A stretch of 64,000 bases of DNA from an uncultured beta proteobacterium (GTDB lineage: Bacteria; Pseudomonadota; Gammaproteobacteria; Burkholderiales; Burkholderiaceae_C): assembly GCA_903845935.1 (NCBI GenBank), contig CAIMZI010000023.1, positions 693 to 64,692 on the forward strand, in the 5' to 3' direction. The notes under the pieces were generated by a model that had not been told where the DNA came from, made no database searches, and worked only from the letters and a program-made list of their open reading frames with translations. The position numbers and the translations under genes were made by a program. Position 1 is the stretch's first letter. The number at the start of each line of letters is the position of its first letter. Shown one piece after another: positions 13,919-53,406 of the stretch.

Positions 13919-13920
13919 GG

Positions 13921-29026: not shown

Positions 29027-29626
29027 ATGCCGCCCTTGTTACTGATCAGCGGTAGCCAACGGGCAGAGTCGTGGAATGCACGCTTGCTGGACCATCTCAC
29101 CTTTTCACTGCAATGGCAATGTGAGGTCGACCTGCTGGAGCCAAAAAGCATAGGCCTACCCCTGTTTGATCAGGATCTGGAGACCGATGCAGCCGTGAGA
29201 AAAGCCCTGGACGGGCTGTACCCACGCTTTGCCAACTGCAGCGGCATCCTCGTCGCCTGCCCCGAATACAACGGACAGGCCACACCGCTGCTCAAAAACA
29301 CCATCGACTGGGTGTCAAGGCTGGCGCACCTAGACACACGCTTCGACAACCCGTTTCATAACAAACCCATGCTGCTGTGCAGCGCCTCCACCGGCTGGAG
29401 CAGTGGCGCATTGGTGATTCAAAATCTGCGCTCCTTGTTTGGCTACCTGGGCGCCCTGGTGGTGGGGCCCAGCATCGGCATCGCACGGGCAGCCGACCGA
29501 TGGACCCCGGATGGATTCGAGTTTGACGACTCCACCGAGTTGCAAATCGAGGCAGCGCTGTCGGCCCTGCTGCAAGCGGCGAGCCACTATCAGCCCATGG
29601 GCGAACCCGGATCACAGCAGGTTTAG
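29027..29626 (+). CDS. NAD(P)H-dependent FMN reductase family protein
   Basis: 199 aa with LLISGSQRAESWN and ACPEYNGQATPLLKNTIDWVSR, typical of the NADPH-dependent FMN reductase fold. Confidence 0.75.
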   Translation: MPPLLLISGSQRAESWNARLLDHLTFSLQWQCEVDLLEPKSIGLPLFDQDLETDAAVRKALDGLYPRFANCSGILVACPEYNGQATPLLKNTIDWVSRLAHLDTRFDNPFHNKPMLLCSASTGWSSGALVIQNLRSLFGYLGALVVGPSIGIARAADRWTPDGFEFDDSTELQIEAALSALLQAASHYQPMGEPGSQQV

Positions 29627-29644
29627 ACACATCCCAATTGCAGC

Positions 29645-30952
29645 ATGGCACACCTACTCATCATTGAATTACCCGGCGGCAACGACTGCGACCTGGTGCA
29701 AGCGGCGCTGGACCGGGGCGACCGCTTTAGCTTTCTCAGCGCCAATCTGGGCCATTACATGGAGCAGGACGCGGTATGGACCAGGTTGGTGCAGGCCCAG
29801 CATCTGCTGGAGTTGCCAGACTTTGCGTTTGAGGCGGTTACGCAAGCGGTGTTGCAGGTACACGCAAAAGATCCCATCGACGCGGTGCTGTGCCTGCTCG
29901 ATATACGCCTGGTGGAGGCCGCCTGCCTGGCCGAAATGCTGGCGCTCAAGCATGTCAAGGCCGCAGACTCCGTGCGGCTGCGCGACAAATACAGCGTGCG
30001 CCGCAGCTTGGCCGAGGCCGGCATTGCACAGCCTGAATTTGCCCTGGCGTGTTCCAACGTCGAGTTGAAGCAAGCCGTGGCGCAACTGGGCCTGCCGGTG
30101 TTGGTCAAGCCCTCGGACGGCTACGCATCGCAAAACATTGCCATGTTGCGTTACCCGGAAGACCTGGACCCGCTGTGGAGCCCGCTAGAAAACATGCTGC
30201 CTTCGGGTGCAGACTATGGCTTGGGAGTGCGCGCCAACGACCGCTTGATGGTTGAGCGTCTGCTGGAGGGTACGGTAATCGGTTGCGATACGCTCAGCAT
30301 GGACGGCCACCACCGCCTGCTGGGCATCCATGAAAAGCTTTTTTTTGAAGCGCCCTCGTTTGCGATTCAGGGCAGCTGCTTTGCCACCGACCATCCCCAG
30401 TTTGATGCCATCGAGCGCTATGTATTCGGCTTGCTCGACACCCTGCGCTTCAACTGGGGCGCCACCCATACCGAACTGATGTTGACAGCCGACGGCCCAC
30501 GCCTGATCGAGGTGAATGGCCGCCTGGTGGGCGCCAAGATTGCCCGGCTGGTGAACTACGCGCTGGACTGGTCTTTTCATTCGGCCCTGATTGACGTGCA
30601 TCTGGGCCTGGAGCCAGAGCTGCCTGCTGTGCGCGACGAACCGGTGTTTGCCGTCACCTGCTGGATCGTGGCGAGCCAGGCCGGTGTGCTGGCCCATGTC
30701 GCCCTGCCGGTGGCAACCGACCCGCGCATACGCTGTGTGGAGCTGATGAAGAAGCCCGGCGACGCGGTGCGACCACCGACTGAAAATGCCGACCGTATCG
30801 GCTATGTCATGGTGTGCGCCAACACCAGGGCCGCGGCCGAGGCTCTGGCCGAACAATTTGTCGCCCAGAGCACGGTGATGCTACAGGCCACGCCGACGGT
30901 GAATCCCTCGGAATCCGACCAGGAACCCCAGTTCTTCAAGCAGGCCGCATGA
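29645..30952 (+). CDS. ATP-grasp domain protein (L-amino-acid-ligase-like)
   Basis: 435 aa with LPVLVKPSDGYASQNI (ATP-grasp Lys loop) and HTELMLTADGPRLIEVNGRLVG (Mg/ATP site). The N-terminus LLIIELPGGND resembles BacD/RizA-type ligases. Confidence 0.7.
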   Translation: MAHLLIIELPGGNDCDLVQAALDRGDRFSFLSANLGHYMEQDAVWTRLVQAQHLLELPDFAFEAVTQAVLQVHAKDPIDAVLCLLDIRLVEAACLAEMLALKHVKAADSVRLRDKYSVRRSLAEAGIAQPEFALACSNVELKQAVAQLGLPVLVKPSDGYASQNIAMLRYPEDLDPLWSPLENMLPSGADYGLGVRANDRLMVERLLEGTVIGCDTLSMDGHHRLLGIHEKLFFEAPSFAIQGSCFATDHPQFDAIERYVFGLLDTLRFNWGATHTELMLTADGPRLIEVNGRLVGAKIARLVNYALDWSFHSALIDVHLGLEPELPAVRDEPVFAVTCWIVASQAGVLAHVALPVATDPRIRCVELMKKPGDAVRPPTENADRIGYVMVCANTRAAAEALAEQFVAQSTVMLQATPTVNPSESDQEPQFFKQAA

Positions 30953-32310
30953 GCGTCCAATTGCAAAAACCATCCACTACTTTCACAGCTACCTGGGGCG
31001 TGCTGTGCCTGCTATTTGTCATCAACCTGCTGAACTTTGTGGATCGCATGATTCCCGCCGTGGTGCTGGAAGACATACGCAAGGCCTACGGCCTGAGCGA
31101 CCTGTGGTTGGGCATTCTGGTGTCCTCGTTCACGGTGGCGTTTGCGCTCGGTGGCCTGCCGCTGGGCCGCCTGGCCGATACCTGGATCCGCAAGCATGTG
31201 CTGACCGGCGGCGTGCTGATCTGGAGCGCATTCACGGCACTGTCCGGTCTGGCGCCCAACTTTTTGAGCTTTTATGTGGCTAGACTGGGTGTGGGCCTGG
31301 GCGAGGCCAGCTACGGCCCGGCGGCAGTGTCCCTGATTGGCGACCTGTTTCCCAGGGCCTGGCGTGGTCGCGCCATGGGCCTGTTCATGCTGGGCCTGCC
31401 GATTGGCATTTCACTCAGCTTCATCGTCATCTCCAAGATCAAGGTGTTGACCGGTTCCTGGCAAACTCCCTTTGTGCTGGCCGGTGTCGCGGGTCTGCTG
31501 GTGGGTGGCCTGCTGCTGCTCATCCGTGAGCCGCAGCGCGGCGCTCAGGAGGCAGAGACAGGCGCCACACTGAAAAAGTTGGATCAGCCCTTTCGCAAGG
31601 TTTTTGCCATCAAGACCCTGTGGTGGATTTGCCTATCGGGCGTGAGCGTCAACATGGCGTCCTACGGCACCAACACCTTTTTCAATTCCCTGCTGCAGCG
31701 CTACTACGGCGTGGCCTCCATGGACGCGGGCTGGATGGCCGCCGCCGTGCTGGGCCTCACCGGCCTGCTGGCCATGACCTTGGGAGCCTATCTGGCCGAC
31801 CTGGCGCATAGGCGCAATGTCAACGGGCGCCTCAAACTAGGCGCCTATTGCCTGCTGGCAGCAGCCCCCTTGGTAGCCATGGCCCTGTGCCAGCCACGGG
31901 GCAGTGACCTGAGCGTCTTCATGCTGCTATACGGCGCGGGTTGGGTGCTGTTCTTTATGTATTACGTGTCGGTCTATACCGCCGTGCAGGATGTGGTGGA
32001 GCCGCGTCTGCGTGCTACCGCCATGGCCGTTTACTTTGCAGCGCAATACCTGGTCGGCTCCACCCTGGGCACCACGCTGGTGGGTGGCCTGTCCGATTAC
32101 TTTGGCAAGCAGCAAATGGCGGCTGCCGGTGCCGCAGCGATGACCGATGCATTCAAGGGCCAGGGCCTGCACTTGGCCATGTTCATGGTGCCCGTCATGC
32201 TGCTGGCAACCGGTCTGGTGCTGCTGATGGCCTCGCGCGGCTTGGTGCGCGATGTCGAAAAACTTCACAAAGGTTTGCCGCTTCACTCGGCTTCCGCAAG
32301 CTGCTTGTAG
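30949..32310 (+). CDS. MFS transporter
   Basis: ORF 30814-32310 trimmed to ATG 30949 (ATGA overlap with the ATP-grasp stop). The 453-aa product has ~12 TM segments and the MFS motif GGLPLGRLADTWIRK. Confidence 0.8.
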   Translation: MSVQLQKPSTTFTATWGVLCLLFVINLLNFVDRMIPAVVLEDIRKAYGLSDLWLGILVSSFTVAFALGGLPLGRLADTWIRKHVLTGGVLIWSAFTALSGLAPNFLSFYVARLGVGLGEASYGPAAVSLIGDLFPRAWRGRAMGLFMLGLPIGISLSFIVISKIKVLTGSWQTPFVLAGVAGLLVGGLLLLIREPQRGAQEAETGATLKKLDQPFRKVFAIKTLWWICLSGVSVNMASYGTNTFFNSLLQRYYGVASMDAGWMAAAVLGLTGLLAMTLGAYLADLAHRRNVNGRLKLGAYCLLAAAPLVAMALCQPRGSDLSVFMLLYGAGWVLFFMYYVSVYTAVQDVVEPRLRATAMAVYFAAQYLVGSTLGTTLVGGLSDYFGKQQMAAAGAAAMTDAFKGQGLHLAMFMVPVMLLATGLVLLMASRGLVRDVEKLHKGLPLHSASASCL

Positions 32311-32864
32311 GCCTCCACCGGAACCAACACCTTGACCTCATCGCTGATGGCCGGAATGTAAGCCAGCATGCCAAACTCGGATCGCTTGACGGTGGCTGTG
32401 ATGTTGCCGGTACACAGCTCGACCTTGAACGAGGTACTCATGGCACAAGAAAATCGGCTGACCCAGACCGTCAGTGGCCGGGTTACGCCCAGCAGGGTGA
32501 GATGCCCTGCCGCAGCCACCACCCGCAATTGATCGTCGAAGAACAACTGATTCGATTCAAACTGAATGCTAGAAAACTCGCGCACCTTCAGAAGCTCAAA
32601 CCCGGGCGATTCCGGTGTAGCCGTACCATGGCCCATGTTCAGCGAGGAGGCGTCTATGGTAAGAGCCACCGAGCCCGACTTCCCCGCACGGTCCAGCACG
32701 ATGCGCCCCTGGACCCTGTCAAAACGGCCGGATTGCGTACTCAGTCCCAGGTGCGTGAACTCAAACACCGGCACACTGTGAATCCCATCGAGCAGATAGG
32801 TATCGGCGGCAAGTCCGGGCAATGCAATGCAGACCAGGCCCCATGCAATCAAATGGGAACGCAT
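32283..32864 (-). CDS. YceI family periplasmic protein (copy 1)
   Basis: Trimmed to MRSHLIAWGLVCIALPGLAA (signal peptide). YceI motifs HSVPVFEFTHLGLSTQSGRF and GHLTLLGVTRPL. The start is uncertain (no clear SD). Confidence 0.7.
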   Translation of the reverse strand: MRSHLIAWGLVCIALPGLAADTYLLDGIHSVPVFEFTHLGLSTQSGRFDRVQGRIVLDRAGKSGSVALTIDASSLNMGHGTATPESPGFELLKVREFSSIQFESNQLFFDDQLRVVAAAGHLTLLGVTRPLTVWVSRFSCAMSTSFKVELCTGNITATVKRSEFGMLAYIPAISDEVKVLVPVEAYKQLAEAE

Positions 32865-32911
32865 GTTCAGCGCCGGTTTGCAGACATCACTTTGCAAGGA
32901 ATGGCCGAGCC

Positions 32912-33478
32912 TCAGTCCTTGTAGGCCTCCACCGGAACGCTGATCTTGATCTCGTCACTCACCGTGGGTATGTACTTCACCATGCCGTAATCGGAGCGCT
33001 TCAGGACGGCCGTGATATCGGCCGCGCACATCGCCCTTTTGTTGATCGGATTGGCACCACAGGCAAAGTGGTTCACGGTCACATGAATCGGCTTGGTCAC
33101 GCCCAGCATGGTGAACTGACCGTCCGCCGAGACCACCTTGCTACCCACGAACTGCAACTGGTCCGATTTGAATCCCATGGTCGGAAACTGTTCAATATTG
33201 AACAGCCCCGGCCCACTGACATGCACCGTCCAGGCCCTTGAGCCCATGTCCAATGTGTTGGTGTAAATGGTGAATTCGACAATGCCTTTTTGTGCGGCCA
33301 GGTCCAGCATCACGCGCCCCTCGGTCTTGTCAAAGCGTCCACGCTGGGTGGTAAAGCCCAGATGCTCCACCTCAAAAGTGGGCAGGGTGTATTCCGGGTC
33401 TATCGTGTAACTGTCCGCAGCACACACCGGCAGGGCCAGGGCTGACGCAATACAGCACAGGATGAGGTTCTTGTTCAT
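32912..33478 (-). CDS. YceI family periplasmic protein (copy 2)
   Basis: Trimmed to MNKNLILCCIASALALPVCA with AAGGAG 6 nt upstream. Motifs YTLPTFEVEHLGFTTQRGRF and GQFTMLGVTKPI. It is a tandem paralogue of copy 1. Confidence 0.8.
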   Translation of the reverse strand: MNKNLILCCIASALALPVCAADSYTIDPEYTLPTFEVEHLGFTTQRGRFDKTEGRVMLDLAAQKGIVEFTIYTNTLDMGSRAWTVHVSGPGLFNIEQFPTMGFKSDQLQFVGSKVVSADGQFTMLGVTKPIHVTVNHFACGANPINKRAMCAADITAVLKRSDYGMVKYIPTVSDEIKISVPVEAYKD

Positions 33479-33507: not shown

Positions 33508-34149
33508 TCAGTCCGGAAAGGCTTGCAGGTAGGCAGCCACTGCCGCCTTGTCGGGGCCGGTCAGCGGGTGGCTAACTGTCTCCATCGGCGTGCCCGGGCG
33601 ACCCTGGGTGTTCTGAAAAATGTCGAGCTGCTTGAGCAGGTAGTCCGCGTGCTGGTTGGCCAGGCGCGGAAAGGCCGCCATGCCCTGTCCGGTCGGACCG
33701 TGGCAGGCGCTGCAGGCAATCACATTCTCGTCGGGCAGACCCTTGTCAAAAATATTCTTGCCGATGGCCCATTGCTTGGCGTCCTCGGGCGGCACCGGGA
33801 GTCGATGAACCGTCTGCTTGGAATAGTAACCGGCCAAGCCGGCAATCTGCTCATCGCTGAGGTGTCGACTCAAGCCCCACATGTACTGGTAGCCGGGTGG
33901 ATCAATGCGTTGGTGGTCGCGAAAATTGTTCAGCTGGCTCACGATGTAGTCTGCCTGTTGTCCTGCCAGGCGAGGAAAGGCCGGACTGGTCGAGTTGCCA
34001 TCCAGTCCATGGCAGTTGGAACAGACCTGGGCGGCAAGGGTCTTGGCCGACACTTCCGGATTGGCAAGATTGCGTGAACGCTCGATATTGGAGCAGCCAG
34101 ACACGACCGCTATTGCTGCTGCGGCCAGCATCACCATGGTTTTATGCAT
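33508..34149 (-). CDS. diheme cytochrome c4-type lipoprotein
   Basis: 213 aa with lipobox VVSGC. It has two CxxCH sites (CSNCHG, CSACHG), each followed by FPRLAGQ/FPRLANQ...Y, the c4 repeat pattern. Confidence 0.8.
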   Translation of the reverse strand: MHKTMVMLAAAAIAVVSGCSNIERSRNLANPEVSAKTLAAQVCSNCHGLDGNSTSPAFPRLAGQQADYIVSQLNNFRDHQRIDPPGYQYMWGLSRHLSDEQIAGLAGYYSKQTVHRLPVPPEDAKQWAIGKNIFDKGLPDENVIACSACHGPTGQGMAAFPRLANQHADYLLKQLDIFQNTQGRPGTPMETVSHPLTGPDKAAVAAYLQAFPD

Positions 34150-34170: not shown

Positions 34171-35610
34171 TTAGAACGCAAACCATGCGTAGAGGAACAG
34201 GGTGTTGTTGTCACTGGCGTCACGCCCCAAACCGTCATAGTTGGTCGATGCGCCGTTGTATTTGCTGTATGCGGTGTACTGCGCACCGAGGCGTAGGTTT
34301 TGTAGCGGCAGGTAAAAGGCCTCCAGCGTATATCCATCGGTGCCGGGCTTACCTGCCACATTTCCGGTAACGCGCGTTGGGTCCTGATTCAACACGTTGG
34401 AGGTGCCGTCGGCGCTAAATGCCGAAGCGCTTCCCCCGTACTTTGCCAAGTAGGTATAGGCCAATTTGAGACGCGTTGTATTTACCGTGTCGCTCGCGCT
34501 ATAGGGGCTTAGTGAAGAATTCTGCAAGGAAGGATCGCCAGCCATGGTGTTGGCCGAGTAATTCGTTACCTGCTGCATATAGGCCAGTTGGGCCGTGAAG
34601 GTATGCGGGTCCAGAATGTATTGGTACTGCGCATCCAAGCCTGTGTTTCTGACCTGGTTATAGGCATTGGAGTCGGATGGGTCACTGCCGGCTTGGCCGT
34701 CGTATATCTTTGCCAGCATGCCGGAGGTGCCCAGCATCAGATTATGGGCGCCCCAATCCCGCGTATAGGCAAAGCGCCAATAGGGGTTATAGCCTTGCAG
34801 GCGCGTGATCTGGGAGTCGTCAACTCCCTCGCGGAACATGCGGAATGCGCCGTCGGCTGTGCCGTAAAAGCCGACTTCACCGTAATAGCTTCTGTCCAGA
34901 TAGGCGTAGGCGGTCAGGCCAACCACATTGCCACTTGGACCATAGGCGGGATAGGGCGCGTATCCATCCACAAACTGGTTGCTGCCTGGTGAGGGAACGG
35001 GCACATATTGCATCCATGTTGGCGCCGTGTTCCAGGGGTCGGCCATCGAGGGATGGTTGTTCAGGCTGACGCCATAAATCAGGTCGCGTTTTTCATCAAT
35101 CAGCCGGTCTGCAAAGCGGATGTCCATATTGTCGGCAACGGTATGGCCGGACGATGAACCGTCCGAGTTGGCAGACGCGTAACGGTCGTGCGTGATCTGC
35201 ACAAAGGCACCAATGTTGTCGGTGATCTTGCCTGCAGCAAACAGACTGCCGGTCGCCAGAATAGGCTCACCGTTCTTGTAAAAGTCTGAACCAGAATTGG
35301 AAGTGGATAAGCCGCTATCAGCCGTGTCGCTCTTGCTGGTATTGGCTACCGTAGCGTAACTGGCAACGCCCATGACCGACAGCGGCATGGTGCGCTCACC
35401 GATGGTGTAACCCGTCATCTTGAACATGCGGCCATAGGGTGTGAGCTCGGGAAACTGGCCTCCGGTATGACAGGCCACACAGTTTTGTCCAGTCTGCCGG
35501 GCAAAGGTTGGCAAGGCCTGGGCGGCCTGCGGGAGCAGCGCCATGGCCAGCGACACCAGCCCATAAGCGAGCGCATGGCGGCGCAAGGAGCGCAAGATCA
35601 TCGACTGCAT
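34171..35610 (-). CDS. fused monoheme cytochrome c / outer-membrane beta-barrel protein (Cyc2-like)
   Basis: Trimmed to ATG 35610 (AGGGGGA 6 nt upstream). The signal peptide ends AQA. The single CXXCH (NCVACH) starts 12 residues into the mature protein. The rest is porin-like and ends ...LFLYAWFAF (terminal Phe). Confidence 0.6.
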   Translation of the reverse strand: MQSMILRSLRRHALAYGLVSLAMALLPQAAQALPTFARQTGQNCVACHTGGQFPELTPYGRMFKMTGYTIGERTMPLSVMGVASYATVANTSKSDTADSGLSTSNSGSDFYKNGEPILATGSLFAAGKITDNIGAFVQITHDRYASANSDGSSSGHTVADNMDIRFADRLIDEKRDLIYGVSLNNHPSMADPWNTAPTWMQYVPVPSPGSNQFVDGYAPYPAYGPSGNVVGLTAYAYLDRSYYGEVGFYGTADGAFRMFREGVDDSQITRLQGYNPYWRFAYTRDWGAHNLMLGTSGMLAKIYDGQAGSDPSDSNAYNQVRNTGLDAQYQYILDPHTFTAQLAYMQQVTNYSANTMAGDPSLQNSSLSPYSASDTVNTTRLKLAYTYLAKYGGSASAFSADGTSNVLNQDPTRVTGNVAGKPGTDGYTLEAFYLPLQNLRLGAQYTAYSKYNGASTNYDGLGRDASDNNTLFLYAWFAF

Positions 35611-35724
35611 TTGGATTCCCCCTATCCTGGTTTCACAAGTCACCCCATGAGGCGCCCGGTATTGCCGCCTGGGCCACTCCATGGATTGAAGCTCCCGAGA
35701 ATAGACCTAGGACAGACGCACACT

Positions 35725-35738
35725 TTGATTCCGATCAA
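35725..35738. promoter_or_regulatory. consensus FNR box upstream of the cytochrome-porin operon
   Basis: TTGATTCCGATCAA is a perfect TTGAT-N4-ATCAA. Its centre is 121 nt upstream of ATG 35610 (minus strand) and 210 nt upstream of mdtA. Confidence 0.65.
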
Positions 35739-35941
35739 GTATGCTTAGATTGCGTACTAGGGTTTTCATAGGGGTAGATAGCCCTGCAGGATCTTGAACG
35801 CCCCCCAGGTTAAGCATTAGTAAAGTTGGAAATCTTCGCATCACAGCCACGATATTGAAAGACAAGCTTGCAACAATGTGGCAGCGCGGCACCGGGGCAA
35901 CCAGCCTGGCAGCCCTTGCACACCCTTCACGAAAAGATTCC

Positions 35942-45274: not shown

Positions 45275-46156
45275 TCAGCCTTGCCGGGACGCGCTTTCAA
45301 TTCTGGTGCCTGCTGGCACCAAGCTCCAATCCAGGAGTGCCACACAGCCGTCTTTGCAGGCAATGACGTAGTGGCTTCCATCCACATGGGCCAAGGCCCC
45401 AGGTGCGCAGTTGTGCGCCACCGGCCAGCAAACCGCCCGTCGCACAAAATACAGCAGGTCGTTCACGCGTGCCAGACATTCGAAATTGCCGAACGCCCTG
45501 AGTTTCAGATCGATTTCCTGGACGCTGCAGTGGAAGTCTATCTCGCGGTCGGCGTCGGTCCACATCTTGATGTAGTTGCCAACGCCCTGTGGCGAGGCGC
45601 CGTCCCATAGACGATCCAGATCCTGCGCCACGGCAGACGCCAACTGCGTGGTTTCGATCTGGGTCTTGAGATCCAGGCTTTCGTGGCACTCGTTGGTATT
45701 GATATCGAAATAGCGCGCGGCAAGAATATCGCCGGTATCGAATTCAGTTGCTAGCTTGTGGCAGGTAGTGGCCCATACAGAACGCCGGTCCAATATGCCC
45801 TGAACCAGGGGGTAAGGCCCTCGGTAGTGCGGCAAAGGCGCGGGATGGAAGTTGATGGCACGCGGCAGGAACGGCGCCCAATTTCCCACCCGCCACTGGT
45901 AGCTGGCCAGCACCAGCAGCTCGCAACCATCGTCTTGGAGTCCTGCAAGATCGCGCTCCTCCATGCGATTGAGCTGGATCGGTATCTTGTGACGCTGGGC
46001 CAGCTCAATCACCTGGCGGTTGCTGGCCATATGGCTTGTGATCGGAGCGGTAAACAGTTTGACCGGTTGCCAGCCGTAATCCATGAATGCCCTGACGACA
46101 CCGATGTAACGGTCGCTGGCCGTAATCGCAAATTTACCGGGTCGCATTGCGCTCAT
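45275..46156 (-). CDS. formyltransferase family protein (Fmt/ArnA-N-like, stand-alone)
   Basis: 293 aa with AINFHPAPLPHYRGPYP (N/H of the catalytic triad plus the LPxYRG motif) and EFDTGDIL (Asp). Confidence 0.7.
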   Translation of the reverse strand: MSAMRPGKFAITASDRYIGVVRAFMDYGWQPVKLFTAPITSHMASNRQVIELAQRHKIPIQLNRMEERDLAGLQDDGCELLVLASYQWRVGNWAPFLPRAINFHPAPLPHYRGPYPLVQGILDRRSVWATTCHKLATEFDTGDILAARYFDINTNECHESLDLKTQIETTQLASAVAQDLDRLWDGASPQGVGNYIKMWTDADREIDFHCSVQEIDLKLRAFGNFECLARVNDLLYFVRRAVCWPVAHNCAPGALAHVDGSHYVIACKDGCVALLDWSLVPAGTRIESASRQG

Positions 46157-47116: not shown

Positions 47117-47647
47117 TTAGAAGCCGAGTTTCAATCCTAGCGTGAACTGGTCCGCATTGGGCTTGTCGCCAAAGGCGTTGAGTTGGTAACGTTCCCACTC
47201 GCCACGAATGGCAACGGTTTTGGTCAGCGCGTATTCGGCGCCCAGTCCAAGCTTGAGGCCATTGCCGCCATCGTCACCGCTTGGGGTATTGACCGACATG
47301 TGGGCCAAGCCCAGGCGACCCAGCAGCTTCCACTGCGGGTTGAGCGGCAGCATGCCGACGGCGTCCACGAAGCTGCCGTAGCTGTCGGTTTGACCGGCGG
47401 AATTGTTCACCGCGCCCAGTTCGGTAAGTCCTGCTTCCACGGCAAAGTTCGGGTTGAGCTGGTAACCGCCATAGAGCTTGCCACTCAGGGCGGAACCACT
47501 GGTGGCGTTGCCATTGAGCGTGTTGGGATAGTTCTGGCTACCCACACTGCCACCCGCGTACAGCCCCTCGGCGTGGGCGCCAATGCCCACCAGGCTGCCG
47601 GCCACCAACACTGCGGTCCATACGGGTTTGAGTTTACGTGCGTACAT
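47117..47647 (-). CDS. small outer-membrane beta-barrel protein (OmpA-like/OmpW-like 8-strand type)
   Basis: Signal peptide ending GAHAEG. It has alternating beta-strand patterns and the C-terminus FTLGLKLGF (terminal Phe). Confidence 0.7.
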   Translation of the reverse strand: MYARKLKPVWTAVLVAGSLVGIGAHAEGLYAGGSVGSQNYPNTLNGNATSGSALSGKLYGGYQLNPNFAVEAGLTELGAVNNSAGQTDSYGSFVDAVGMLPLNPQWKLLGRLGLAHMSVNTPSGDDGGNGLKLGLGAEYALTKTVAIRGEWERYQLNAFGDKPNADQFTLGLKLGF

Positions 47648-47659
47648 CGTTCGTCCTTT

Positions 47660-47696
47660 AGATCATGCACACCGGAAAAGGTGTGTGTACTGATCT
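47660..47696 (-). other. bipartite hairpin in the leader of the OMP gene
   Basis: AGATCA-TG-CACACC-GGAAAA-GGTGTG-TGTAC-TGATCT. On the minus strand it ends 12 nt before the ATG at 47647, abutting the AAAGGA SD. Confidence 0.35.
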
Positions 47697-47770
47697 TGCG
47701 GCGGCTACGCGCTGTAGCTCATGTACGCCATGCGAAGCTATGTAACGAATGCAACCGAAGTGTGAAGCGC

Positions 47771-48544
47771 TTAAGCCGCGCCACGGCCCTTGCCTTGTGG
47801 ACACAGCGTGAGAAAGGCCTGCTCCAGACTCAGGCCACCGGACTGCGCAATGAGTTCGGCGGGCGGGCCATCAAACACGATCTCGCCCTGGTTCAGCACC
47901 AGCACGCGGTCGGCATGGACCACCTCGTCGACCAGATGCGTGGCCCAGAGAACGGCCACTTCGCCCGCCTTCGCCAGGGCCTCCACCGATCGCATCAGCT
48001 CCTGGCGCGAGGCCGGATCCAGACCGACGGTGGCCTCGTCCATCAGCAAAAATTTCGGCTTGTGCAGCAGCGCGCGAATCAGCTCCACCTTGCGTCGGTT
48101 GCCGCCGGACAGGGCGCGCACGGCCACGCCCTCCTGGCCTTGCAAGCCGTGCTGCTCCAGACCGGCCTGGATTCTTTGCAGTGCCGTTTTGCGGGCGATG
48201 CCATGCAGATCGGTATGAAACAGCAAATTGGCGCGAATGCTCAAATCCAGGTCCAGCGAGGATTGCTGAAACACCACGCCGAGTCCGGCCAGAGCCTTGG
48301 GTGCTTCACGGCGGATGTCAAAACCCAGCACCGACAGATCGCCCTGGTCCGGCACAAACAGGCCGCTGAGCAGTTGCACCAGGGTCGACTTGCCCGCGCC
48401 GTTGGGCCCCAAAAGGGCCACGAACTGCCCCGCATACAGCGACATGCTGACGGACTTGAGCGCCAGTTTGGGCCCGTAGGACTTTTGCAGTGCGGTGGCG
48501 ATCAGTACCGGCGTGGCTTGTTCGGTTGTTTCAGGGTGCGTCAT
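47771..48544 (-). CDS. ABC transporter ATP-binding protein (ABC-2 type; PQQ-dehydrogenase-system-associated type suspected)
   Basis: Walker A GPNGAGKST, signature LSGGNRRKVEL and Walker B LLMDEATVGLD. There is no adjacent permease gene. Confidence 0.8.
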   Translation of the reverse strand: MTHPETTEQATPVLIATALQKSYGPKLALKSVSMSLYAGQFVALLGPNGAGKSTLVQLLSGLFVPDQGDLSVLGFDIRREAPKALAGLGVVFQQSSLDLDLSIRANLLFHTDLHGIARKTALQRIQAGLEQHGLQGQEGVAVRALSGGNRRKVELIRALLHKPKFLLMDEATVGLDPASRQELMRSVEALAKAGEVAVLWATHLVDEVVHADRVLVLNQGEIVFDGPPAELIAQSGGLSLEQAFLTLCPQGKGRGAA

Positions 48545-48613
48545 AGACTTTCAAGTCTACCCCTGTACAGCAGGAAGTGCCCGCAAAAGCGTGACTTCTG
48601 CAAGTGATTCCAT

Positions 48614-48629
48614 TGGCATATATATTGCG
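48614..48629 (+). promoter_or_regulatory. sigma-54 promoter upstream of the beta-propeller / TonB-receptor genes
   Basis: TGGCATATATATTGCG is TGGCA(T)-N5-TTGC with exact spacing. It lies 48 nt upstream of ATG 48677. Confidence 0.6.
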
Positions 48630-48676
48630 GCTTCATTGAAGACATGTCCCATGTGACACACAAGAAAGAGACACGC

Positions 48677-49642
48677 ATGAATTCCCGCTACTCCCAGGCG
48701 CTGATGTTCAGCGCCGCCCTGCTGTTGCTTGGCGCGCCGGCACAGGCCGATGTGTTTGTCAGCAGCGAAAAGGACAACGCCATTTTGCAAATGGACGCAG
48801 ATGGCAAGGTGATCCGCTCGCTTCCGGTCTGCCTGCGTCCGCGCCATATGGCCTGGGCACAAGGTGGCAAGCAGATCATGATGGCCTGTGGCGACAGCAA
48901 CCAGATCGGCGTGCTGGACCTGGCGTCGGGCAAGCTGATTGACAGCATTCCCACTGGCGAAAGCCCGGAAATTTTCGCCCTATCGCAGGACTCCAAGACG
49001 GCCTACGTCTCGATTGAAGACGGCAGCCAATTGGCGGCCTATGACGTGGCTGGCAAGAAGCCGCTGTTCTCGGTCAAGACCGGAGCCGAGCCAGAGGGTG
49101 TGCTCGCCACGGCCGACGGCAAAACGGTGTTTGTCACCTCCGAGGTGGCCAACGCCGTCTACAAGGTCGATGTGGCCGCGCGCAAGACCGTGGCCCAGGT
49201 GAAGACCGGCATGCGGCCGCGCCGCTTTGCCATCACGCCCGATGCCTCCGAGCTGTGGGTGACCAACGAACTGGGCTCCAGCGTCAGCATCATCGACACC
49301 GCGAGCATGAAGATCAAGCAAACGCTAAGCTTTACCGTGACCGGAATGCGCGCCTCCGACATCACGCCGGTAGGCATGCTGATCAGCTCTGATGGCAAGA
49401 CGGTCTGGGTGGCGCTGGGGCGGGCCAACCATGTGGCGGAGGTGGACGTCGCCACGCGCACGGTGCGTGGTCTGGCCCTGGTGGGCAAGCGTGCCTGGGG
49501 ACTGGCGCTGAGCACCGATGGGGCGCGCCTGTATGTGGCCAATGGCCAGTCGGACGACATGACGATCATCGACACCAGCAATCGCAAGGCCTTGAAGACC
49601 GTTCCCGTGGGGCGCGAGCCACACAGCATTTTGACCAATTGA
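48677..49642 (+). CDS. YVTN-family beta-propeller repeat protein (PQQ-dependent catabolism-associated type)
   Basis: ORF 48644-49642 trimmed to MNSRYSQALMFSAALLLLGAPAQA (signal peptide), because the sigma-54 promoter predicts a transcript start near 48640. It has repeated ...VSxxxxxxIxVxD... blades. Confidence 0.7.
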   Translation: MNSRYSQALMFSAALLLLGAPAQADVFVSSEKDNAILQMDADGKVIRSLPVCLRPRHMAWAQGGKQIMMACGDSNQIGVLDLASGKLIDSIPTGESPEIFALSQDSKTAYVSIEDGSQLAAYDVAGKKPLFSVKTGAEPEGVLATADGKTVFVTSEVANAVYKVDVAARKTVAQVKTGMRPRRFAITPDASELWVTNELGSSVSIIDTASMKIKQTLSFTVTGMRASDITPVGMLISSDGKTVWVALGRANHVAEVDVATRTVRGLALVGKRAWGLALSTDGARLYVANGQSDDMTIIDTSNRKALKTVPVGREPHSILTN

Positions 49643-49660
49643 TTTCGAAAACCCAAAAAA

Positions 49661-51937
49661 ATGAAGACGACAGTGACAAACGCGATTCCCACCCGCCACA
49701 AGCTACTCCCGCTGGCCCTGGCCCTTTCAGCGGTGGCGCCAGCTTGGAGTCAGAACGCTGCCCCGGCGACCGGCACATTGGCCGAGGTGACGGTGATTGC
49801 CACCACACCGGTGGCTGGAACCGGGATTTCTCTTGATAAATTCGCCGGCAATGTGCAAACCCTGTCGCACGACGCGCTCGACACGCCCTCGCAAGACCTA
49901 GCCCAGCGCCTGAGCCAGTCCCTGGGTTCCATGAATATCAACGACACCCAGGGCAACGCCTTTAGCGTGGATCTGAATTACCGCGGTTTTACCGCCTCGC
50001 CCGCGCTGGGCACGCCGCAAGGTCTGTCGGTGTACCTGGATGGCATGCGCATCAACGAGCCCTTTGGCGATGTGGTGTCCTGGGACCTGCTGCCCCAGCT
50101 CATCGTTGACAAGGTCAACGTCATCCCCGGCTCGAATCCGGTGTACGGGCTCAACACCCTGGGCGGCGCCATCAGCATGACCAGCAAGAACGGCAACAGC
50201 CTGAAAGGCAGCCAGGGCGGCATCGGGCTGGGCTCCTTTGGTCGCAAGAGCGTGGACGTGGAACACGGCAGCCATGACGACGATGGCAATCTGTACTTCG
50301 CCGCGAGCCTCTACAACGACAATGGCTGGGCCGCCAATAACCCCAGCCAGGTGCGCCAGTTTTTTGGCAAATACACGGCCTACCTGGATCAAGGCGATGT
50401 GGCCATTTCCCTGCTGGCGGCCGACAACCTGCTCTACGGCAACCAGTCCGTGCCGCTGTCCATGCTGGACAACGCGCAGCAGGGCTATTCGCATCCAGAC
50501 TATTCGGCCACGCAAAACCTCACACTCAATGTGCAGGGCAACTGGGCAGCGGATGCGTCCAACAGCTATGCCGGCAATGTCTACTACCGCAGCCTGACGC
50601 GTGACATTCTCAACAGCAATGTCAACAACCCTCCCAACGCATCCACCAACGAAGCCAGCTGCGTGCTGACTGCGGACTGCCCCGCCACCAATCTGTTGGC
50701 GCACTACACCCAGTCGATTATGGGCGCCAACGCGCAGTGGACCAATACCGACCCGATCTGGAACATCAACCAGGTGGCCACCCTGGGCCTGAACGCCGAG
50801 TTCAGTCACACCCACTTCAACAACCAGGGCCAGTACGCCATCCTGGATAGCAGCCGGGGCACGGTGGGCGTGTCCGCCTACACGGCGCAGGCCGATGTGC
50901 AATCCGACAATCAACGCCTGGGCCTGTTTGCCACCAGCACCTTCGATGCCAGCGATGCCTTGTCGATCACCGCCTCGGCGCGCTACGACTACGCCACGCT
51001 CACGCTGTCCGGCCAATCCTGCGTGGACAACGCGCTGTGCGACAGCAGCAGTTCCCTTGCGGCGGGCACGCTCACCGATGTCAGCGGCAAGCATGTGTAC
51101 CAGCGGCTCAATCCGTCATTGGGCCTCACCTATGTGCTGGCGCCCAGCTGGATCGCCTTTGCCAACTACGCCGAAGGCTTTCGTACGCCATCGGCCATCG
51201 AGCTGGCCTGTGCCGATCCGGCCGTGCCCTGCTCGGGTGTGCCCAATGCCTTTGGCGCCGACCCGGAACTCAAGCCGGTGGTCTCCAGAACTTATGAAAT
51301 CGGCATGCGCGGCAACTTCAGCGACCGCCTGAAATGGCGTACCGCCTACTACCGCACGACGCTGGAAAATGACATTTTGTTTAACCAGAGCAGTCTGAAC
51401 AGCGGCTACTTTTCCAACGTCGGCCAGACCCTGCGCCAAGGTCTGGAGCTGGGCCTGGATGGCCGCTTCGGATCCATGGACTACGCCGTCGATCTCGATT
51501 GGATAGAGGCCACCTACCGGTCCAGCTTCTTGGTGGCCAACCCGGCCAATAGCGCACCGGCGGTTCCGGTCAAGCCAGGCGACTTCATTCCCGGAATTCC
51601 GCAATGGGTGCTCAAGGGCCGCGCGAGCTACGCGCTGGACGGCAAGACGCGCCTGGGTCTGGCGCTGCAGGCGCAGGGTCCGACCTACGCGCGAGGGGAT
51701 GAGAACAATGCCGATGTGAACGGCCAGGTGCCAGGCTTCACCACCCTCAAGCTCGACATCAGCCACAGCCTCAACAAGCGCTTCAACCTGTATGCCGGCA
51801 TCAGCAATCTGCTAGACGCCAAATACGCAGCTTATGGCGTATTGGCCAGCAACAATGTCAGCACGGGTGCCTATGAGCAATTCCGCAGCCTGGGCGCGCC
51901 GCGTACGCTGTACGCAGGCGTTCAGGCGAAGTTTTGA
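49661..51937 (+). CDS. TonB-dependent outer-membrane receptor
   Basis: 758 aa. It has a signal peptide, a TonB-box-like LAEVTVIA, the plug motif (LNYRGFTASPALGTPQGLSVYLDGMRINEPFGDVV) and the C-terminus RTLYAGVQAKF. Confidence 0.85.
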   Translation: MKTTVTNAIPTRHKLLPLALALSAVAPAWSQNAAPATGTLAEVTVIATTPVAGTGISLDKFAGNVQTLSHDALDTPSQDLAQRLSQSLGSMNINDTQGNAFSVDLNYRGFTASPALGTPQGLSVYLDGMRINEPFGDVVSWDLLPQLIVDKVNVIPGSNPVYGLNTLGGAISMTSKNGNSLKGSQGGIGLGSFGRKSVDVEHGSHDDDGNLYFAASLYNDNGWAANNPSQVRQFFGKYTAYLDQGDVAISLLAADNLLYGNQSVPLSMLDNAQQGYSHPDYSATQNLTLNVQGNWAADASNSYAGNVYYRSLTRDILNSNVNNPPNASTNEASCVLTADCPATNLLAHYTQSIMGANAQWTNTDPIWNINQVATLGLNAEFSHTHFNNQGQYAILDSSRGTVGVSAYTAQADVQSDNQRLGLFATSTFDASDALSITASARYDYATLTLSGQSCVDNALCDSSSSLAAGTLTDVSGKHVYQRLNPSLGLTYVLAPSWIAFANYAEGFRTPSAIELACADPAVPCSGVPNAFGADPELKPVVSRTYEIGMRGNFSDRLKWRTAYYRTTLENDILFNQSSLNSGYFSNVGQTLRQGLELGLDGRFGSMDYAVDLDWIEATYRSSFLVANPANSAPAVPVKPGDFIPGIPQWVLKGRASYALDGKTRLGLALQAQGPTYARGDENNADVNGQVPGFTTLKLDISHSLNKRFNLYAGISNLLDAKYAAYGVLASNNVSTGAYEQFRSLGAPRTLYAGVQAKF

Positions 51938-52828: not shown

Positions 52829-52868
52829 CTAGTCTCCTACTTGTTTTTGTGCCTGTGCCTGAATGGGC

Positions 52869-53363
52869 TCAGGGCGCGCGACGCGTTTCCAGATAAGTTT
52901 TGATGGCCCACATGGCTTCTTGGGTCAGTATGCCTTCAAACGGAGGCATGAACACGCGGCCATCGCGTGCCCGTCCGCGGCGCACGGTGGAGACAAAGTA
53001 GTCATTAATCTCCTGGAAGCAGCCCAGCTTCTTGCTCTCATCGCCCATGCTCAGGCAGTCGTTGTCGAGCTTGCGCAGGTCCGGCGAGATGCCGCCGGAG
53101 ATGGCCTCCAGACCGTGGCAGCGGGCGCAGTTCTGGTTAAAGGCCGAGGTACCGATACGCAGGGCTTCGGCATGACCTTCGGCCTTGTCCTTGGCATAGG
53201 GGTTGTCATCCAACCACTTTTCGCCCAGCTGCGGCAAGGTGCTGGTGTCCACGGAGTGCGGAACCACGTCGCCATGCGCCATGGCCACGAGGCTGCCCAG
53301 CGAAAGGCAGCTTGCCAGGGCGGCGGAAACCCAAGTACGGCGTGAGGGAAATAAGGTGCTCAT
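52869..53363 (-). CDS. cytochrome c550/cL-like monoheme cytochrome (PedF/ExaB/XoxG type)
   Basis: ORF 52869-53411 trimmed to MSTLFPSRRTWVSAALASCLSLGSLVAMA. It has one heme site (NCARCHG) followed by ISPDLRKL and a conserved Cys pair (NDCLSMGDESKKLGC), as in alcohol-dehydrogenase-linked c550. The start is uncertain. Confidence 0.65.
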   Translation of the reverse strand: MSTLFPSRRTWVSAALASCLSLGSLVAMAHGDVVPHSVDTSTLPQLGEKWLDDNPYAKDKAEGHAEALRIGTSAFNQNCARCHGLEAISGGISPDLRKLDNDCLSMGDESKKLGCFQEINDYFVSTVRRGRARDGRVFMPPFEGILTQEAMWAIKTYLETRRAP

Positions 53364-53406
53364 GGAGGATGTGGCGCGAAGCGTTAAGTTGCGGATCACC
53401 TGCTTT

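What the first reader, a model, noticed from the sequence alone, without database searches (positions are those of the whole stretch)
34171..35610. Fused monoheme cytochrome-porin (Cyc2-like) outer-membrane protein
The trimmed product (479 aa) has a standard signal peptide (…LLPQAAQA). This is followed by LPTFARQTGQNCVACHTGGQFPELTPYG. The single CXXCH starts 12 residues into the mature protein, and its two cysteines are the only ones in the protein. The remaining ~430 aa look like a porin. They are rich in Gly/Tyr/Asn/Ser/Thr and contain amphipathic strands such as LKLAYTYLAKYG, GYTLEAFYLPL and LRLGAQYTAYSKY. The protein ends in ...LFLYAWFAF, with the terminal Phe typical of outer-membrane beta-barrels. 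An N-terminal heme c fused to a barrel is the defining architecture of Cyc2. Cyc2 is the outer-membrane Fe(II) oxidase of Acidithiobacillus ferrooxidans and of neutrophilic iron oxidisers (Mariprofundus, Sideroxydans). The next gene is a diheme c4, matching the cyc2-cyc1 gene order of the A. ferrooxidans rus operon. Homologues in non-iron-oxidising Burkholderiales are functionally unverified, so a role in electron exchange with extracellular substrates is open. The gene also looks lower in G+C than the flanking mdt genes (by eye).
Basis: partly seen in the sequence, partly recalled or inferred. Interest (0 to 1): 0.78.

Follow-up and report, generated by a model that had tools for sequence, protein, structure and literature searches.

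The report
Cyc2-type outer-membrane cytochrome-porin gene
This gene encodes a genuine member of the known Cyc2 family, a single-heme cytochrome fused to an outer-membrane pore that iron-oxidising bacteria use to take electrons from dissolved iron. It sits beside its usual diheme partner, so it is a correct but largely ordinary find, with one unreported extra: two linked lipid-binding YceI genes.

Summary

- **The protein.** The ORF at 34171-35610 (-) encodes 479 aa. It has a signal peptide and the Cyc2-defining motif ALPTFARQT-GQN-CVACH...PEL. Its only two cysteines lie in that motif. The AlphaFold2 model is confident (pLDDT 86.6) and shows a 16-strand porin barrel ending in Phe.
- **Homology to real Cyc2.** I retrieved an Acidithiobacillus rus operon for direct comparison. 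The window protein aligns end to end with its Cyc2 (29% identity, E 2e-41; profile comparison 100% probability).
- **The partner gene.** The next gene, a diheme c4 lipoprotein, is 39% identical to Cyc1. Its best solved-structure match is A. ferrooxidans cytochrome c4 (1H1O).
- **Context in other genomes.** In 80 other genomes the gene is followed by such a c4 in 58. A further 12 have an adjacent HiPIP instead. This fits an electron-entry module.
- **Novelty.** Cyc2 homologues in bacteria not known to oxidise iron, including Burkholderiales, are already published, so this is a new member of a known kind. Fe(II) oxidation itself is inferred, not shown.
- **The one new element.** A cyc2-c4-yceI-yceI cassette recurs in this subclade. 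No searchable paper mentions both YceI and cyc2.

The parts
34171..35610 (-). cyc2-like gene: a 479-aa fused monoheme cytochrome c and 16-strand outer-membrane porin (stop codon 34171-34173)
   Evidence: ORF. No Pfam or NCBIfam model matches. 29% identity and E 2e-41 to Acidithiobacillus rus-operon Cyc2. hhalign 100% probability, E 1e-73.
35515..35610 (-). Signal peptide (residues 1-32, MQSMILRSLRRHALAYGLVSLAMALLPQAAQA), with predicted cleavage after AQA
   Evidence: Read from the sequence: a basic n-region, a hydrophobic core and an AXA site. Start position and length are shared with close homologues. No signal-peptide predictor was available.
35443..35517 (-). Cyc2 signature: ALPTFARQT (residues 32-40), CVACH (44-48) and PEL (54-56)
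   Evidence: The motif is found once in the window. It is conserved in 72 of 72 diverse representatives. It is identical in layout to Acidithiobacillus Cyc2, ALPSFARQTGWSCAACH..PQL. It matches the published defining motif.
35383..35514 (-). Small cytochrome domain (mature residues 33-76, two short helices)
   Evidence: The AlphaFold2 secondary structure shows helices at 35-48 and 58-65. pLDDT is low here (53-66), as expected for a model without heme.
34174..35382 (-). 16-strand beta-barrel porin domain (residues 77-479), with C-terminal Phe
   Evidence: AlphaFold2 predicts 16 strands, with mean pLDDT 86.6 and pTM 0.83. The top Foldseek PDB hits are OmpC, OmpF and OmpK36 at E about 5e-9. The barrel alone matches A. 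ferrooxidans-type Cyc2 at 30% identity, E 1e-27.
35617..35622 (-). Ribosome-binding site GGGGGA, 6 nt before ATG 35610
   Evidence: Sequence read.
35611..35854 (.). Intergenic region shared with the divergent mdtA gene. It presumably holds the promoter, but none was identified.
   Evidence: No sigma-70-like site was found on the minus strand here. There is no Fur-box match above window background: the best is 11 of 19, a score seen 45 times in the window.
33508..34149 (-). Diheme cytochrome c4 (Cyc1-like, 213 aa). It has a lipoprotein-type signal (…AVVSGC-SN) and starts 21 nt after cyc2.
   Evidence: Pfam Cytochrom_C in two stretches. Best PDB match is 1H1O at E 3e-31. 39% identity to rus-operon Cyc1, E 1e-37. 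A c4 follows directly downstream in 58 of 80 loci.
32912..33478 (-). YceI-family periplasmic lipocalin 'a' (188 aa from MNKN...; the ORF extends to 33508)
   Evidence: Pfam YceI, E 9e-31. Best PDB match is 5IXG at E 2e-26. Orthologues at 71-74% identity sit in the same position in L090 and L092.
32283..32897 (-). YceI-family periplasmic lipocalin 'b' (204 aa as called; the start may instead be ATG 32864). It is the last gene of the four-gene unit and converges on the MFS gene.
   Evidence: Pfam YceI, E 4e-23. Best PDB match is 5IXG at E 6e-21. Orthologues at 53-57% identity are in L090 and L092.

Best explanation
The gene encodes a Cyc2-family outer-membrane protein.

**Proposed mechanism.** After Sec export and signal-peptide cleavage, the roughly 45-residue N-terminal domain receives one covalently bound heme c at CVACH. 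The remaining 400 or so residues fold into a 16-strand porin in the outer membrane, with the heme domain at or in the periplasmic mouth. A dissolved reductant enters the pore and gives one electron to the heme. By analogy with characterised Cyc2 proteins, that reductant is most probably Fe2+. The electron then passes to the co-transcribed diheme c4 lipoprotein (Cyc1-like). From there it goes to a terminal oxidase or bc1 complex encoded elsewhere. In this probably organotrophic betaproteobacterium-like organism, the pathway would give supplementary energy or remove Fe(II) at the cell surface.

**Shown here:**
- family membership;
- the fold;
- the motif;
- homology of both genes to cyc2 and cyc1;
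- conserved pairing with periplasmic one-electron carriers.

**Inferred:**
- heme attachment;
- membrane location;
- the substrate;
- the direction of electron flow;
- the downstream acceptor.

The confidence of 0.6 refers to the whole statement, including Fe(II) as donor. Family membership alone I put at about 0.95.
For: - **Motif.** The layout is ALPTFARQT-3 residues-CVACH-5 residues-PEL, and these are the protein's only cysteines. This is the motif published as unique to Cyc2 (PMC8406198).
- **Fold.** AlphaFold2 predicts 16 strands with pLDDT 86.6. Foldseek finds 16-strand general porins.
- **Homology.** Full-length alignment to the Cyc2 gene of an Acidithiobacillus rus operon (L087: cyc2-cyc1-cup-COX2-COX1-...-rusticyanin) gives 29% identity and E 2e-41. 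The profile comparison gives 100% probability and E 1e-73. The barrel-only comparison gives E 1e-27.
- **Partner.** The downstream c4 has 1H1O as its best solved-structure match and is 39% identical to Cyc1.
- **Synteny in 80 genomes.** A c4 lies directly downstream in 58. A HiPIP is adjacent in 15, and 12 of those lack a c4. A Rieske/bc1 subunit or a membrane-anchored cytochrome c follows in 3.
- **Operon structure.** The intergenic gaps are 21, 29 and 14 nt, which suggests one operon.
- **Family function.** Fe(II) oxidation has been shown biochemically for representatives of all three Cyc2 clusters and for a further one in 2026 (PMC13647500).
Against: - No function was tested.
- Identity to characterised Cyc2 is only 29-30%. 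Keffer et al. warn that function is uncertain for the many divergent homologues, notably in Clusters 2 and 3 and in organisms not known to oxidise iron.
- The window and its 10-kb flanks contain no rusticyanin, cup or cox genes, and no other iron-oxidation or CO2-fixation genes.
- No Fur box or other iron-related regulatory signal was found upstream.
- No conserved Met or second His in the heme domain can be named as distal ligand. The invariant positions are C44, C47, H48, L56, G60 and F63, with K64 conserved in at least 90%.
- The YceI genes in the operon have no place in the classical Cyc2 pathway.
- The heme-domain region of the model has low confidence, so its position relative to the barrel is not established.
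Confidence: 0.6

Rival explanations
1. The four-gene cassette (Cyc2-like, c4, two YceI lipocalins) is an envelope redox-protection or quinone-linked system rather than an iron-oxidation pathway. The YceI proteins would carry ubiquinone-8 or oxidised lipids in the periplasm. The c-type cytochromes would exchange electrons with that ligand. They would play the role that cytochrome b561 (LcoA) plays for BcnA/BcnB in Burkholderia cenocepacia.
For: - Both YceI proteins have B. cenocepacia BcnB (5IXG) as their best solved-structure match.
- In B. cenocepacia, a cytochrome gene plus two YceI genes form an operon that protects against lipid peroxyl radicals, and YceI proteins bind ubiquinone-8 (PMC9113575).
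- cyc2-c4-yceI(-yceI) recurs with different flanking genes in the window, L004, L005, L090, L092 and L095.
- The a and b copies are separate orthologous lines. No cytochrome b561 lies next to these YceI genes.
Against: - YceI linkage is confined to part of one subclade: 6 of 13 lineages examined at 56% identity or more, and none of the more distant loci. The cyc2-c4 pair is widespread without YceI.
- A porin-embedded heme is not needed for a periplasmic reaction.
- Adjacent genes may share regulation without sharing a pathway.
- There are no experimental data.
Confidence: 0.15
2. It has the Cyc2 architecture but a different extracellular partner or direction of flow. It might oxidise another reduced species, such as Mn(II), Cu(I), reduced humics or a cathode. 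Or it might carry electrons outward from the c4 or quinol pool to an external oxidant.
For: - The literature leaves open that Cyc2 homologues in non-iron-oxidisers serve other extracellular electron-transfer processes (PMC5566968; PMC8406198).
- Cyc2 also occurs in the electrode-oxidising Tenderia.
- Heavy-metal P-type ATPase genes lie within 6 kb in 6 of 80 loci. Two-component systems of the 2CSK_N/OmpR type lie close by in 16 of 80 loci.
Against: - Every Cyc2 tested so far oxidises Fe(II).
- The metal-ATPase link is rare, and the two-component link is unspecific.
- c4 and HiPIP are high-potential carriers, which suits inward flow from a mild reductant to oxygen.
Confidence: 0.2
3. It is simply a diffusion porin whose N-terminal heme motif is vestigial or structural, with no electron-transfer role.
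For: The fold matches general porins. No Pfam or NCBIfam cytochrome model recognises the N-terminal domain.
Against: - C, C, H and the flanking motif are invariant or nearly so across 72 representatives at 31-59% identity.
- The gene is almost always next to a periplasmic redox carrier: 70 of the 77 loci with readable downstream sequence.
Confidence: 0.03

Closest known systems
Cyc2 of Acidithiobacillus ferrooxidans/ferrivorans (first gene of the rus operon; Cluster 2 of McAllister/Keffer)
   Same: - Same length class (479 against 485 aa) and same signal peptide.
- Same ALP(T/S)FARQTG-xx-CxxCH motif, with identical 3-residue spacing, and a P-x-L after the heme site.
- Alignable over the whole barrel (29-30% identity).
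- Followed by a homologous diheme c4 (39% identity).
   Different: - There is no cup, coxBACD or rusticyanin downstream. Two YceI genes follow instead.
- The c4 is a lipoprotein here.
- The PEL motif is 5 residues after His, against 3 in Acidithiobacillus.
- The host is a probably neutrophilic, uncultured betaproteobacterium-like organism.
- Cluster assignment by the FeGenie HMMs was not done.
Cyc2 PV-1 of Mariprofundus ferrooxydans and Gallionellaceae Cyc2 (Cluster 1, neutrophilic iron oxidisers)
   Same: Same published architecture and defining motif, a 16-strand porin, and a proposed Cyc2 to Cyc1 to oxidase route.
   Different: No Cluster 1 sequence was available for direct comparison. The window protein aligns well with Acidithiobacillus Cyc2, which the literature calls only a distant relative of Cluster 1 proteins. 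It is therefore probably not Cluster 1, the cluster with the best-supported function.
Cyc2 homologues in Burkholderiales, Rhodanobacteraceae, Bradyrhizobium, Pseudomonas and other bacteria not known to oxidise iron
   Same: This is the group the window protein belongs to. Published work already notes such homologues and their clustering with HiPIP and Cyc1-like genes in Bradyrhizobium. I found the same partners.
   Different: The link to a YceI pair is not mentioned in any paper of the searchable library.
LcoA-BcnA-BcnB (cytochrome b561 plus two YceI lipocalins) of Burkholderia cenocepacia
   Same: Cytochrome gene or genes followed by two YceI lipocalin genes in one operon. Both YceI proteins here are closest to BcnB among solved structures.
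   Different: The cytochromes are c-type and located in the outer membrane and periplasm, not an inner-membrane b561. No b561 gene is nearby.
MtoAB/PioAB/MtrAB porin-cytochrome complexes
   Same: An outer-membrane barrel combined with heme c for electron transfer across the outer membrane.
   Different: Those are two proteins, with a 26-strand barrel and a decaheme. Here there is one polypeptide, 16 strands and one heme.

Membership tests
Cyc2 fused cytochrome-porin family (criteria of Keffer et al. 2021) | N-terminal signal peptide | tested here: met
   Basic n-region, hydrophobic core and AQA|L site, read from the sequence. The same start and length occur in close homologues. No dedicated predictor was available.
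Cyc2 fused cytochrome-porin family (criteria of Keffer et al. 2021) | Exactly one CXXCH heme-binding motif, near the N-terminus | tested here: met
   CVACH at residues 44-48, which holds the only two Cys in the protein.
Cyc2 fused cytochrome-porin family (criteria of Keffer et al. 2021) | AXPXFAR[Q/K][T/Y] motif just upstream of CXXCH (stated to be unique to Cyc2) | tested here: met
   ALPTFARQT at residues 32-40. Its spacing to the Cys is identical to that in Acidithiobacillus Cyc2.
Cyc2 fused cytochrome-porin family (criteria of Keffer et al. 2021) | PXL motif a few residues downstream of CXXCH | tested here: met
   PEL at residues 54-56, 5 residues after His. The gap is 3 in Acidithiobacillus and 3-5 across the representatives.
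Cyc2 fused cytochrome-porin family (criteria of Keffer et al. 2021) | Length of at least 365 aa with a C-terminal 16-strand beta-barrel porin | tested here: met
   479 aa. AlphaFold2 predicts 16 strands with pLDDT 86.6 and pTM 0.83. The top Foldseek hits are 16-strand porins.
Cyc2 fused cytochrome-porin family (criteria of Keffer et al. 2021) | Sequence homology to a Cyc2 from a known iron oxidiser | tested here: met
   BLASTP E 2e-41 at 29% identity over the full length against rus-operon Cyc2. hhalign 100% probability. Barrel-only comparison E 1e-27.
Cyc2 fused cytochrome-porin family (criteria of Keffer et al. 2021) | Score above the cut-off of a FeGenie Cyc2 HMM, with assignment to Cluster 1, 2 or 3 | not testable with these tools
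   The FeGenie HMMs and the published tree alignment are not available here.
Cyc2 fused cytochrome-porin family (criteria of Keffer et al. 2021) | Covalent heme, outer-membrane location and Fe(II) oxidase activity | not testable with these tools
   These require experiments.
rus operon of Acidithiobacillus (cyc2-cyc1-cup-coxBACD-rus) | cyc2 immediately followed by cyc1 (diheme c4) | tested here: met
   The c4 gene starts 21 nt downstream. It is 39% identical to Cyc1, and its best PDB match is 1H1O.
rus operon of Acidithiobacillus (cyc2-cyc1-cup-coxBACD-rus) | cup, aa3-type oxidase genes and rusticyanin in the same operon | tested here: not met
   Two YceI genes and then a convergent MFS gene lie downstream. 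No COX or copper-binding protein lies within 10 kb. Compare L087.
LcoA-BcnA-BcnB lipid-peroxyl detoxification system | YceI-family lipocalin gene(s) | tested here: met
   Two YceI genes, both with 5IXG as best PDB match.
LcoA-BcnA-BcnB lipid-peroxyl detoxification system | Adjacent or fused cytochrome b561 gene | tested here: not met
   None lies within 10 kb in the window or in L090, L092 or L095.
MtoAB/PioAB/MtrAB porin-cytochrome complexes | 26-strand barrel plus a separate decaheme cytochrome | tested here: not met
   16 strands and one heme in the same polypeptide.

The most novel reading that the evidence does not exclude
The conserved cyc2-c4-yceI-yceI cassette may define an undescribed Cyc2 subtype. 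In it, ubiquinone-binding YceI lipocalins would be the periplasmic partners of the outer-membrane heme. They could act as a soluble quinone shuttle between the Cyc2/c4 pair and the inner membrane. Alternatively, they could form an outer-membrane antioxidant system that is fed with electrons from extracellular Fe(II).
Probability: 0.15. Interest if true: 0.6.

Novelty: new member of a known kind. Interest (0 to 1): 0.3.

Why it matters
Cyc2 is the most widely used marker gene for neutrophilic iron oxidation. It is unresolved how far that function extends to the many homologues in organotrophic Proteobacteria.

This locus adds one more such homologue, from an uncultured freshwater betaproteobacterium-like lineage. 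The gene pair is clearly homologous to cyc2-cyc1 of Acidithiobacillus.

It does not change what is known, but two context observations could help choose experimental targets:
- The downstream partner alternates between c4 and HiPIP across genomes.
- A YceI pair is recurrently linked in one subclade.

If the YceI link is functional, it would connect an outer-membrane heme to a periplasmic quinone carrier. That connection has not been described.

Tried and rejected
- **Pfam and NCBIfam on the protein:** no hit at E<=1. No curated model of Cyc2 exists in those libraries, so this says nothing against membership.
- **Sequence search of the PDB:** only chance-level hits. No Cyc2 structure has been solved.
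- **Genome scan with the 72-sequence alignment:** It was repeated with 19 sequences. The pattern used (A[VL]PSFARQT) excludes the window's own ALPTFARQT, so the source genome was not recovered.
- **Literature search for the peptide FARQTG:** nothing found.
- **Organism identification:** Rfam found no rRNA or other RNA in the window. The exact protein occurs only in metagenome or MAG contigs without a taxon name. The formyltransferase I used as a marker proved to be an accessory gene, with named relatives only at about 50% identity. The host is therefore only 'probably Burkholderiales-like', judged from the nearest Cyc2, c4 and YceI relatives in Rhodoferax and Comamonadaceae MAGs.
- **Promoter, terminator and Fur-box scans:** nothing above background.
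- **Horizontal transfer from the low G+C:** considered and not adopted. The GC3 drop is small and the amino-acid composition of a porin explains part of it. The same flanking genes recur in all contigs carrying this protein or its close variant in the same 90%-identity cluster.
- **Distal heme ligand:** I looked for one among conserved residues and could not name one.
Full report
**1. What is in the sequence**

On the minus strand there is an ORF at 34171-35682 (503 aa).

- **Start codon.** ATG 35610 is preceded by GGGGGA with a 6-nt spacer. Close homologues mostly begin about 32 residues before the predicted cleavage site, and several begin with MQS- like this one. I therefore accept the trimmed start.
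- **N-terminus.** The product begins with a typical signal peptide ending AQA. It continues LPTFARQTGQNCVACHTGGQFPELTPYG.
- **Cysteines and C-terminus.** C44 and C47 are the only cysteines, there is one CXXCH, and the protein ends ...LFLYAWFAF.
- **G+C.** The gene is lower in G+C than its surroundings: 0.567 against 0.618 for the window and 0.63-0.65 for the mdt genes. That is the 2nd percentile of windows of the same size. At third codon positions the difference is small (0.68 against 0.72-0.81).

All points of the observation are confirmed.

**2. The protein family**

Pfam and NCBIfam have no model that matches, and no solved structure is related by sequence. The family is nevertheless very large.

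- More than 4,500 homologues were found in the word-indexed search. All lack Pfam domains and are named 'cytochrome C' or 'hypothetical'.
- A profile search found 3,060 representatives of 50%-identity clusters at E<=1e-3 and 442 at E<=1e-30.
- I examined 72 full-length representatives at 31-59% identity to the query. Every one has a single CXXCH, and it is preceded in nearly all by A-x-P-x-[F/Y]-A-R-Q-T-G. A P-x-L follows 3-5 residues after the His.
- Across these 72 sequences, C44, C47, H48, L56, G60 and F63 are invariant.

Keffer et al. 2021 (PMC8406198) give exactly this as the Cyc2 definition. Their criteria are AXPXFAR[Q/K][T/Y] before the CXXCH (said to be unique to Cyc2), a PXL motif after it, a length of at least 365 aa, and a 16-strand porin.

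**3. The fold**

I ran AlphaFold2 with a 119-sequence alignment. It gave mean pLDDT 86.6 and pTM 0.83.

- The model has two short helices in residues 35-65, which is the heme domain. Confidence is low there, as expected when heme is absent from the model.
- It has 16 beta strands between residues 77 and 478.
- Foldseek against the PDB returns 16-strand general porins (OmpE36, OmpK36, OmpC, OmpF) at E about 5e-9 and TM-score up to 0.6 relative to the target.

I could not inspect the coordinates. The position of the heme domain relative to the barrel is therefore not established.

**4. Direct comparison with a real Cyc2**

No Cyc2 sequence was available at the outset, so I reached one through its neighbour.

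- The window's diheme cytochrome has PDB 1H1O as its best solved-structure match (E 3e-31). From my own knowledge, 1H1O is the A. ferrooxidans cytochrome c4, also called Cyc41 or Cyc1.
- I searched with the 1H1O sequence printed in that alignment. This returned Acidithiobacillus Cyc1 proteins, one of them named A. ferrivorans SS3.
- Looking up where that protein is encoded gave locus L087. Its gene order is the canonical rus operon: a 485-aa gene without Pfam hits, then Cyc1, a 183-aa gene, COX2, COX1, two small genes, and a copper-binding rusticyanin-like gene.

The 485-aa protein starts ...AWALPSFARQTGWSCAACHTSYPQLTPMGRMFK. The comparisons were:

| Comparison | Result |
|---|---|
| Window protein vs L087 Cyc2, full length | 29% identity, E 2e-41 |
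| Profile of 72 representatives vs L087 Cyc2 | 100% probability, E 1e-73 |
| Window protein vs A. ferrooxidans-type Cyc2 fragment (L089, N-terminally truncated, no heme domain) | 30% identity, E 1e-27 |
| L089 fragment vs L087 Cyc2 | 79% identity |
| Window c4 vs L087 Cyc1 | 39% identity, E 1e-37 |

Homology therefore covers the barrel as well as the heme motif. The window carries true homologues of the first two genes of the rus operon, in the same order. It carries none of the remaining genes.

**5. Genomic context here**

The gene is the first of four closely spaced minus-strand genes, with gaps of 21, 29 and 14 nt:
- cyc2-like;
- c4, with a lipoprotein-type signal (...VVSGC-SN);
- two YceI-family lipocalins, each with a signal peptide.

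The unit is bounded upstream by the divergent mdtABC-OMP efflux operon. Downstream it meets a convergent MFS transporter, an ATP-grasp gene and an FMN-reductase gene.

The same arrangement recurs in every metagenomic contig that carries this protein or its close variant P0270 from the same 90%-identity cluster. I found no promoter-like site, terminator, Fur box or Rfam element that explains regulation.

The rest of the window holds central-metabolism and transport genes and one further monoheme cytochrome c. It holds no terminal oxidase or bc1 genes and nothing recognisably iron-oxidation or CO2-fixation related.

**6. Context elsewhere**

A scan of one genome per species returned 587 confirmed relatives, of which the 80 best were kept. 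They come mostly from Beta-, Gamma- and Alphaproteobacteria. Among them are Pseudomonas fluorescens HK44, P. brassicacearum, Pseudoduganella, Telluria and Massilia.

- In 58 of the 80 loci, a homologue of the window's c4 lies directly downstream.
- In 15 loci a small Tat-signal protein with four Cys is adjacent, and 12 of those lack the c4. Pfam identifies it as HiPIP.
- One locus continues with the Rieske subunit of bc1, and two with a membrane-anchored cytochrome c.
- Three loci are cut off by the contig end. Of the 77 informative loci, 70 have a c4 or HiPIP adjacent.

An outer-membrane heme protein that is almost always paired with a high-potential periplasmic one-electron carrier is what an electron-entry module should look like. 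The same partners were reported for a Bradyrhizobium Cyc2 (PMC5566968).

**7. The YceI link**

YceI genes follow cyc2-c4 only in the closest subclade.

- They are present in the window, L005 (a Rhodoferax MAG, two copies), L004, L090 (69% identity, two copies), L092 (58%, two copies) and L095 (Rhodoferax, one copy).
- They are absent in L001-L003, L006, L091, L093 and L094. That makes 6 of 13 lineages.
- The flanking genes differ between these loci. The two copies are separate orthologous lines: 'a' copies are 71-74% identical across loci, and 'a' against 'b' is about 45-52%. The cassette is therefore inherited as a unit.
- Both copies are most similar to BcnB of B. cenocepacia (5IXG) among solved structures.

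In B. cenocepacia, a cytochrome b561 gene and two YceI genes form an operon that protects against lipid peroxyl radicals, and YceI proteins bind ubiquinone-8 (PMC9113575). No paper in the searchable library mentions both YceI and cyc2. This is the only element I consider possibly new. I treat it as a lead, not a finding.

**8. Mechanism**

The best-supported reading is the published Cyc2 model. Fe2+ enters the pore and reduces the single heme, which passes the electron to the c4 and onward to an oxidase.

- **Shown here:** membership, fold, motif, homology of both genes, and conserved pairing with redox carriers.
- **Inferred:** heme attachment, localisation, substrate, direction of flow, and the final acceptor.

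[quoted passage not shown] The authors of the family description, however, caution against extending the function to divergent homologues in organisms not known to oxidise iron.

My estimates are:

| Claim | Probability |
|---|---|
| Family membership | about 0.95 |
| Fe(II) as physiological donor | about 0.6 |
| Another substrate or direction of flow | about 0.2 |
| A YceI-linked envelope redox role | about 0.15 |
| A porin with a vestigial heme motif | about 0.03 |

**9. Novelty**

Cyc2 homologues outside known iron oxidisers are well documented.

- Keffer et al. removed surplus sequences from Burkholderia, Ralstonia and Xanthomonas from their tree.
- A 2023 network analysis links Acidithiobacillus Cyc2 and Cyc1 to dense clusters from Burkholiales-type lineages: Burkholderiales, Rhodanobacteraceae and others (PMC10654088).
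- He et al. [quoted passage not shown]

The finding is therefore a correct identification of a new member of a known kind. The host could not be named. The nearest relatives of all three gene types are in Rhodoferax and Comamonadaceae MAGs, and an attempted marker search was uninformative.

**10. Verdict**

Interest is modest at 0.3. The cyc2-c4-yceI-yceI cassette is worth a note for anyone choosing Cyc2 homologues for functional tests.

Noticed in passing
L024:9353-9634, L039:9354-9635 and 13 other loci: In genomes where the Cyc2-like gene is not followed by a c4, it is usually followed by a HiPIP gene with a Tat signal and four Cys. Telluria antibiotica is one example. The periplasmic partner seems interchangeable between lineages.
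   Followed up: partly
L041:10012-10566 and 11 other loci (for example L060:10023-10553): A conserved protein of about 140-260 aa with no Pfam hit lies directly after the c4 in 12 of 80 loci. It has a signal peptide and an Ala/Pro-rich linker. It may be a further component of the module in those lineages.
   Followed up: partly
L015:5004-7060 (Pseudomonas sp.), L095:1730-3815 (Rhodoferax) and other loci: An OmpR-type response regulator and a sensor kinase with a 2CSK_N domain lie upstream of the Cyc2-like gene in these two lineages. In L095 they lie immediately upstream on the same strand. The kinase family is found within 6 kb in 16 of 80 loci. Heavy-metal P-type ATPase genes lie near in 6 of 80 loci.
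   Followed up: partly
L044:9342-9971: In one gammaproteobacterial MAG the Cyc2-like gene is followed directly by the Rieske subunit of a bc1 complex.
   Followed up: partly
window 1104-4753 (+) and 11271-15234 (-): Two separate gene sets for 2-oxoacid:ferredoxin oxidoreductases (POR/POR_N/TPP domains), each with a Pyr_redox_2/4Fe-4S protein. Isocitrate dehydrogenase lies at 15751-16959 and aconitase-family genes at 62524-63986. This is unusual equipment for an aerobic organotroph.
   Followed up: partly
window 47183-51937 (+): A 474-aa protein with no Pfam hit, a YncE-like beta-propeller protein and a TonB-dependent receptor lie in a row. This may be an uptake cluster.
   Followed up: partly
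window 51938-53411 (-): A second c-type cytochrome (monoheme, 180 aa) lies next to a gene for a solute-binding-protein-like product. It is unrelated in sequence to the cyc2 cassette.
   Followed up: partly
window 17486-19870 (-): A 794-aa DUF3141 protein (E 5e-229 to the Pfam model). Its function is unknown.
   Followed up: no
window 45275-46156 (-): This gene is called methionyl-tRNA formyltransferase-like, but it is an accessory formyltransferase. Its named relatives reach only about 50% identity (Steroidobacteraceae, Sulfuricella, Undibacterium). This suggests the host lineage has no close cultured relative.
   Followed up: partly
window 29027-32310 (+): FMN reductase, an ATP-grasp (LAL_C2) ligase and an MFS transporter form a conserved trio that converges on the cassette. 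It may be a small peptide or metabolite synthesis and export unit.
   Followed up: no
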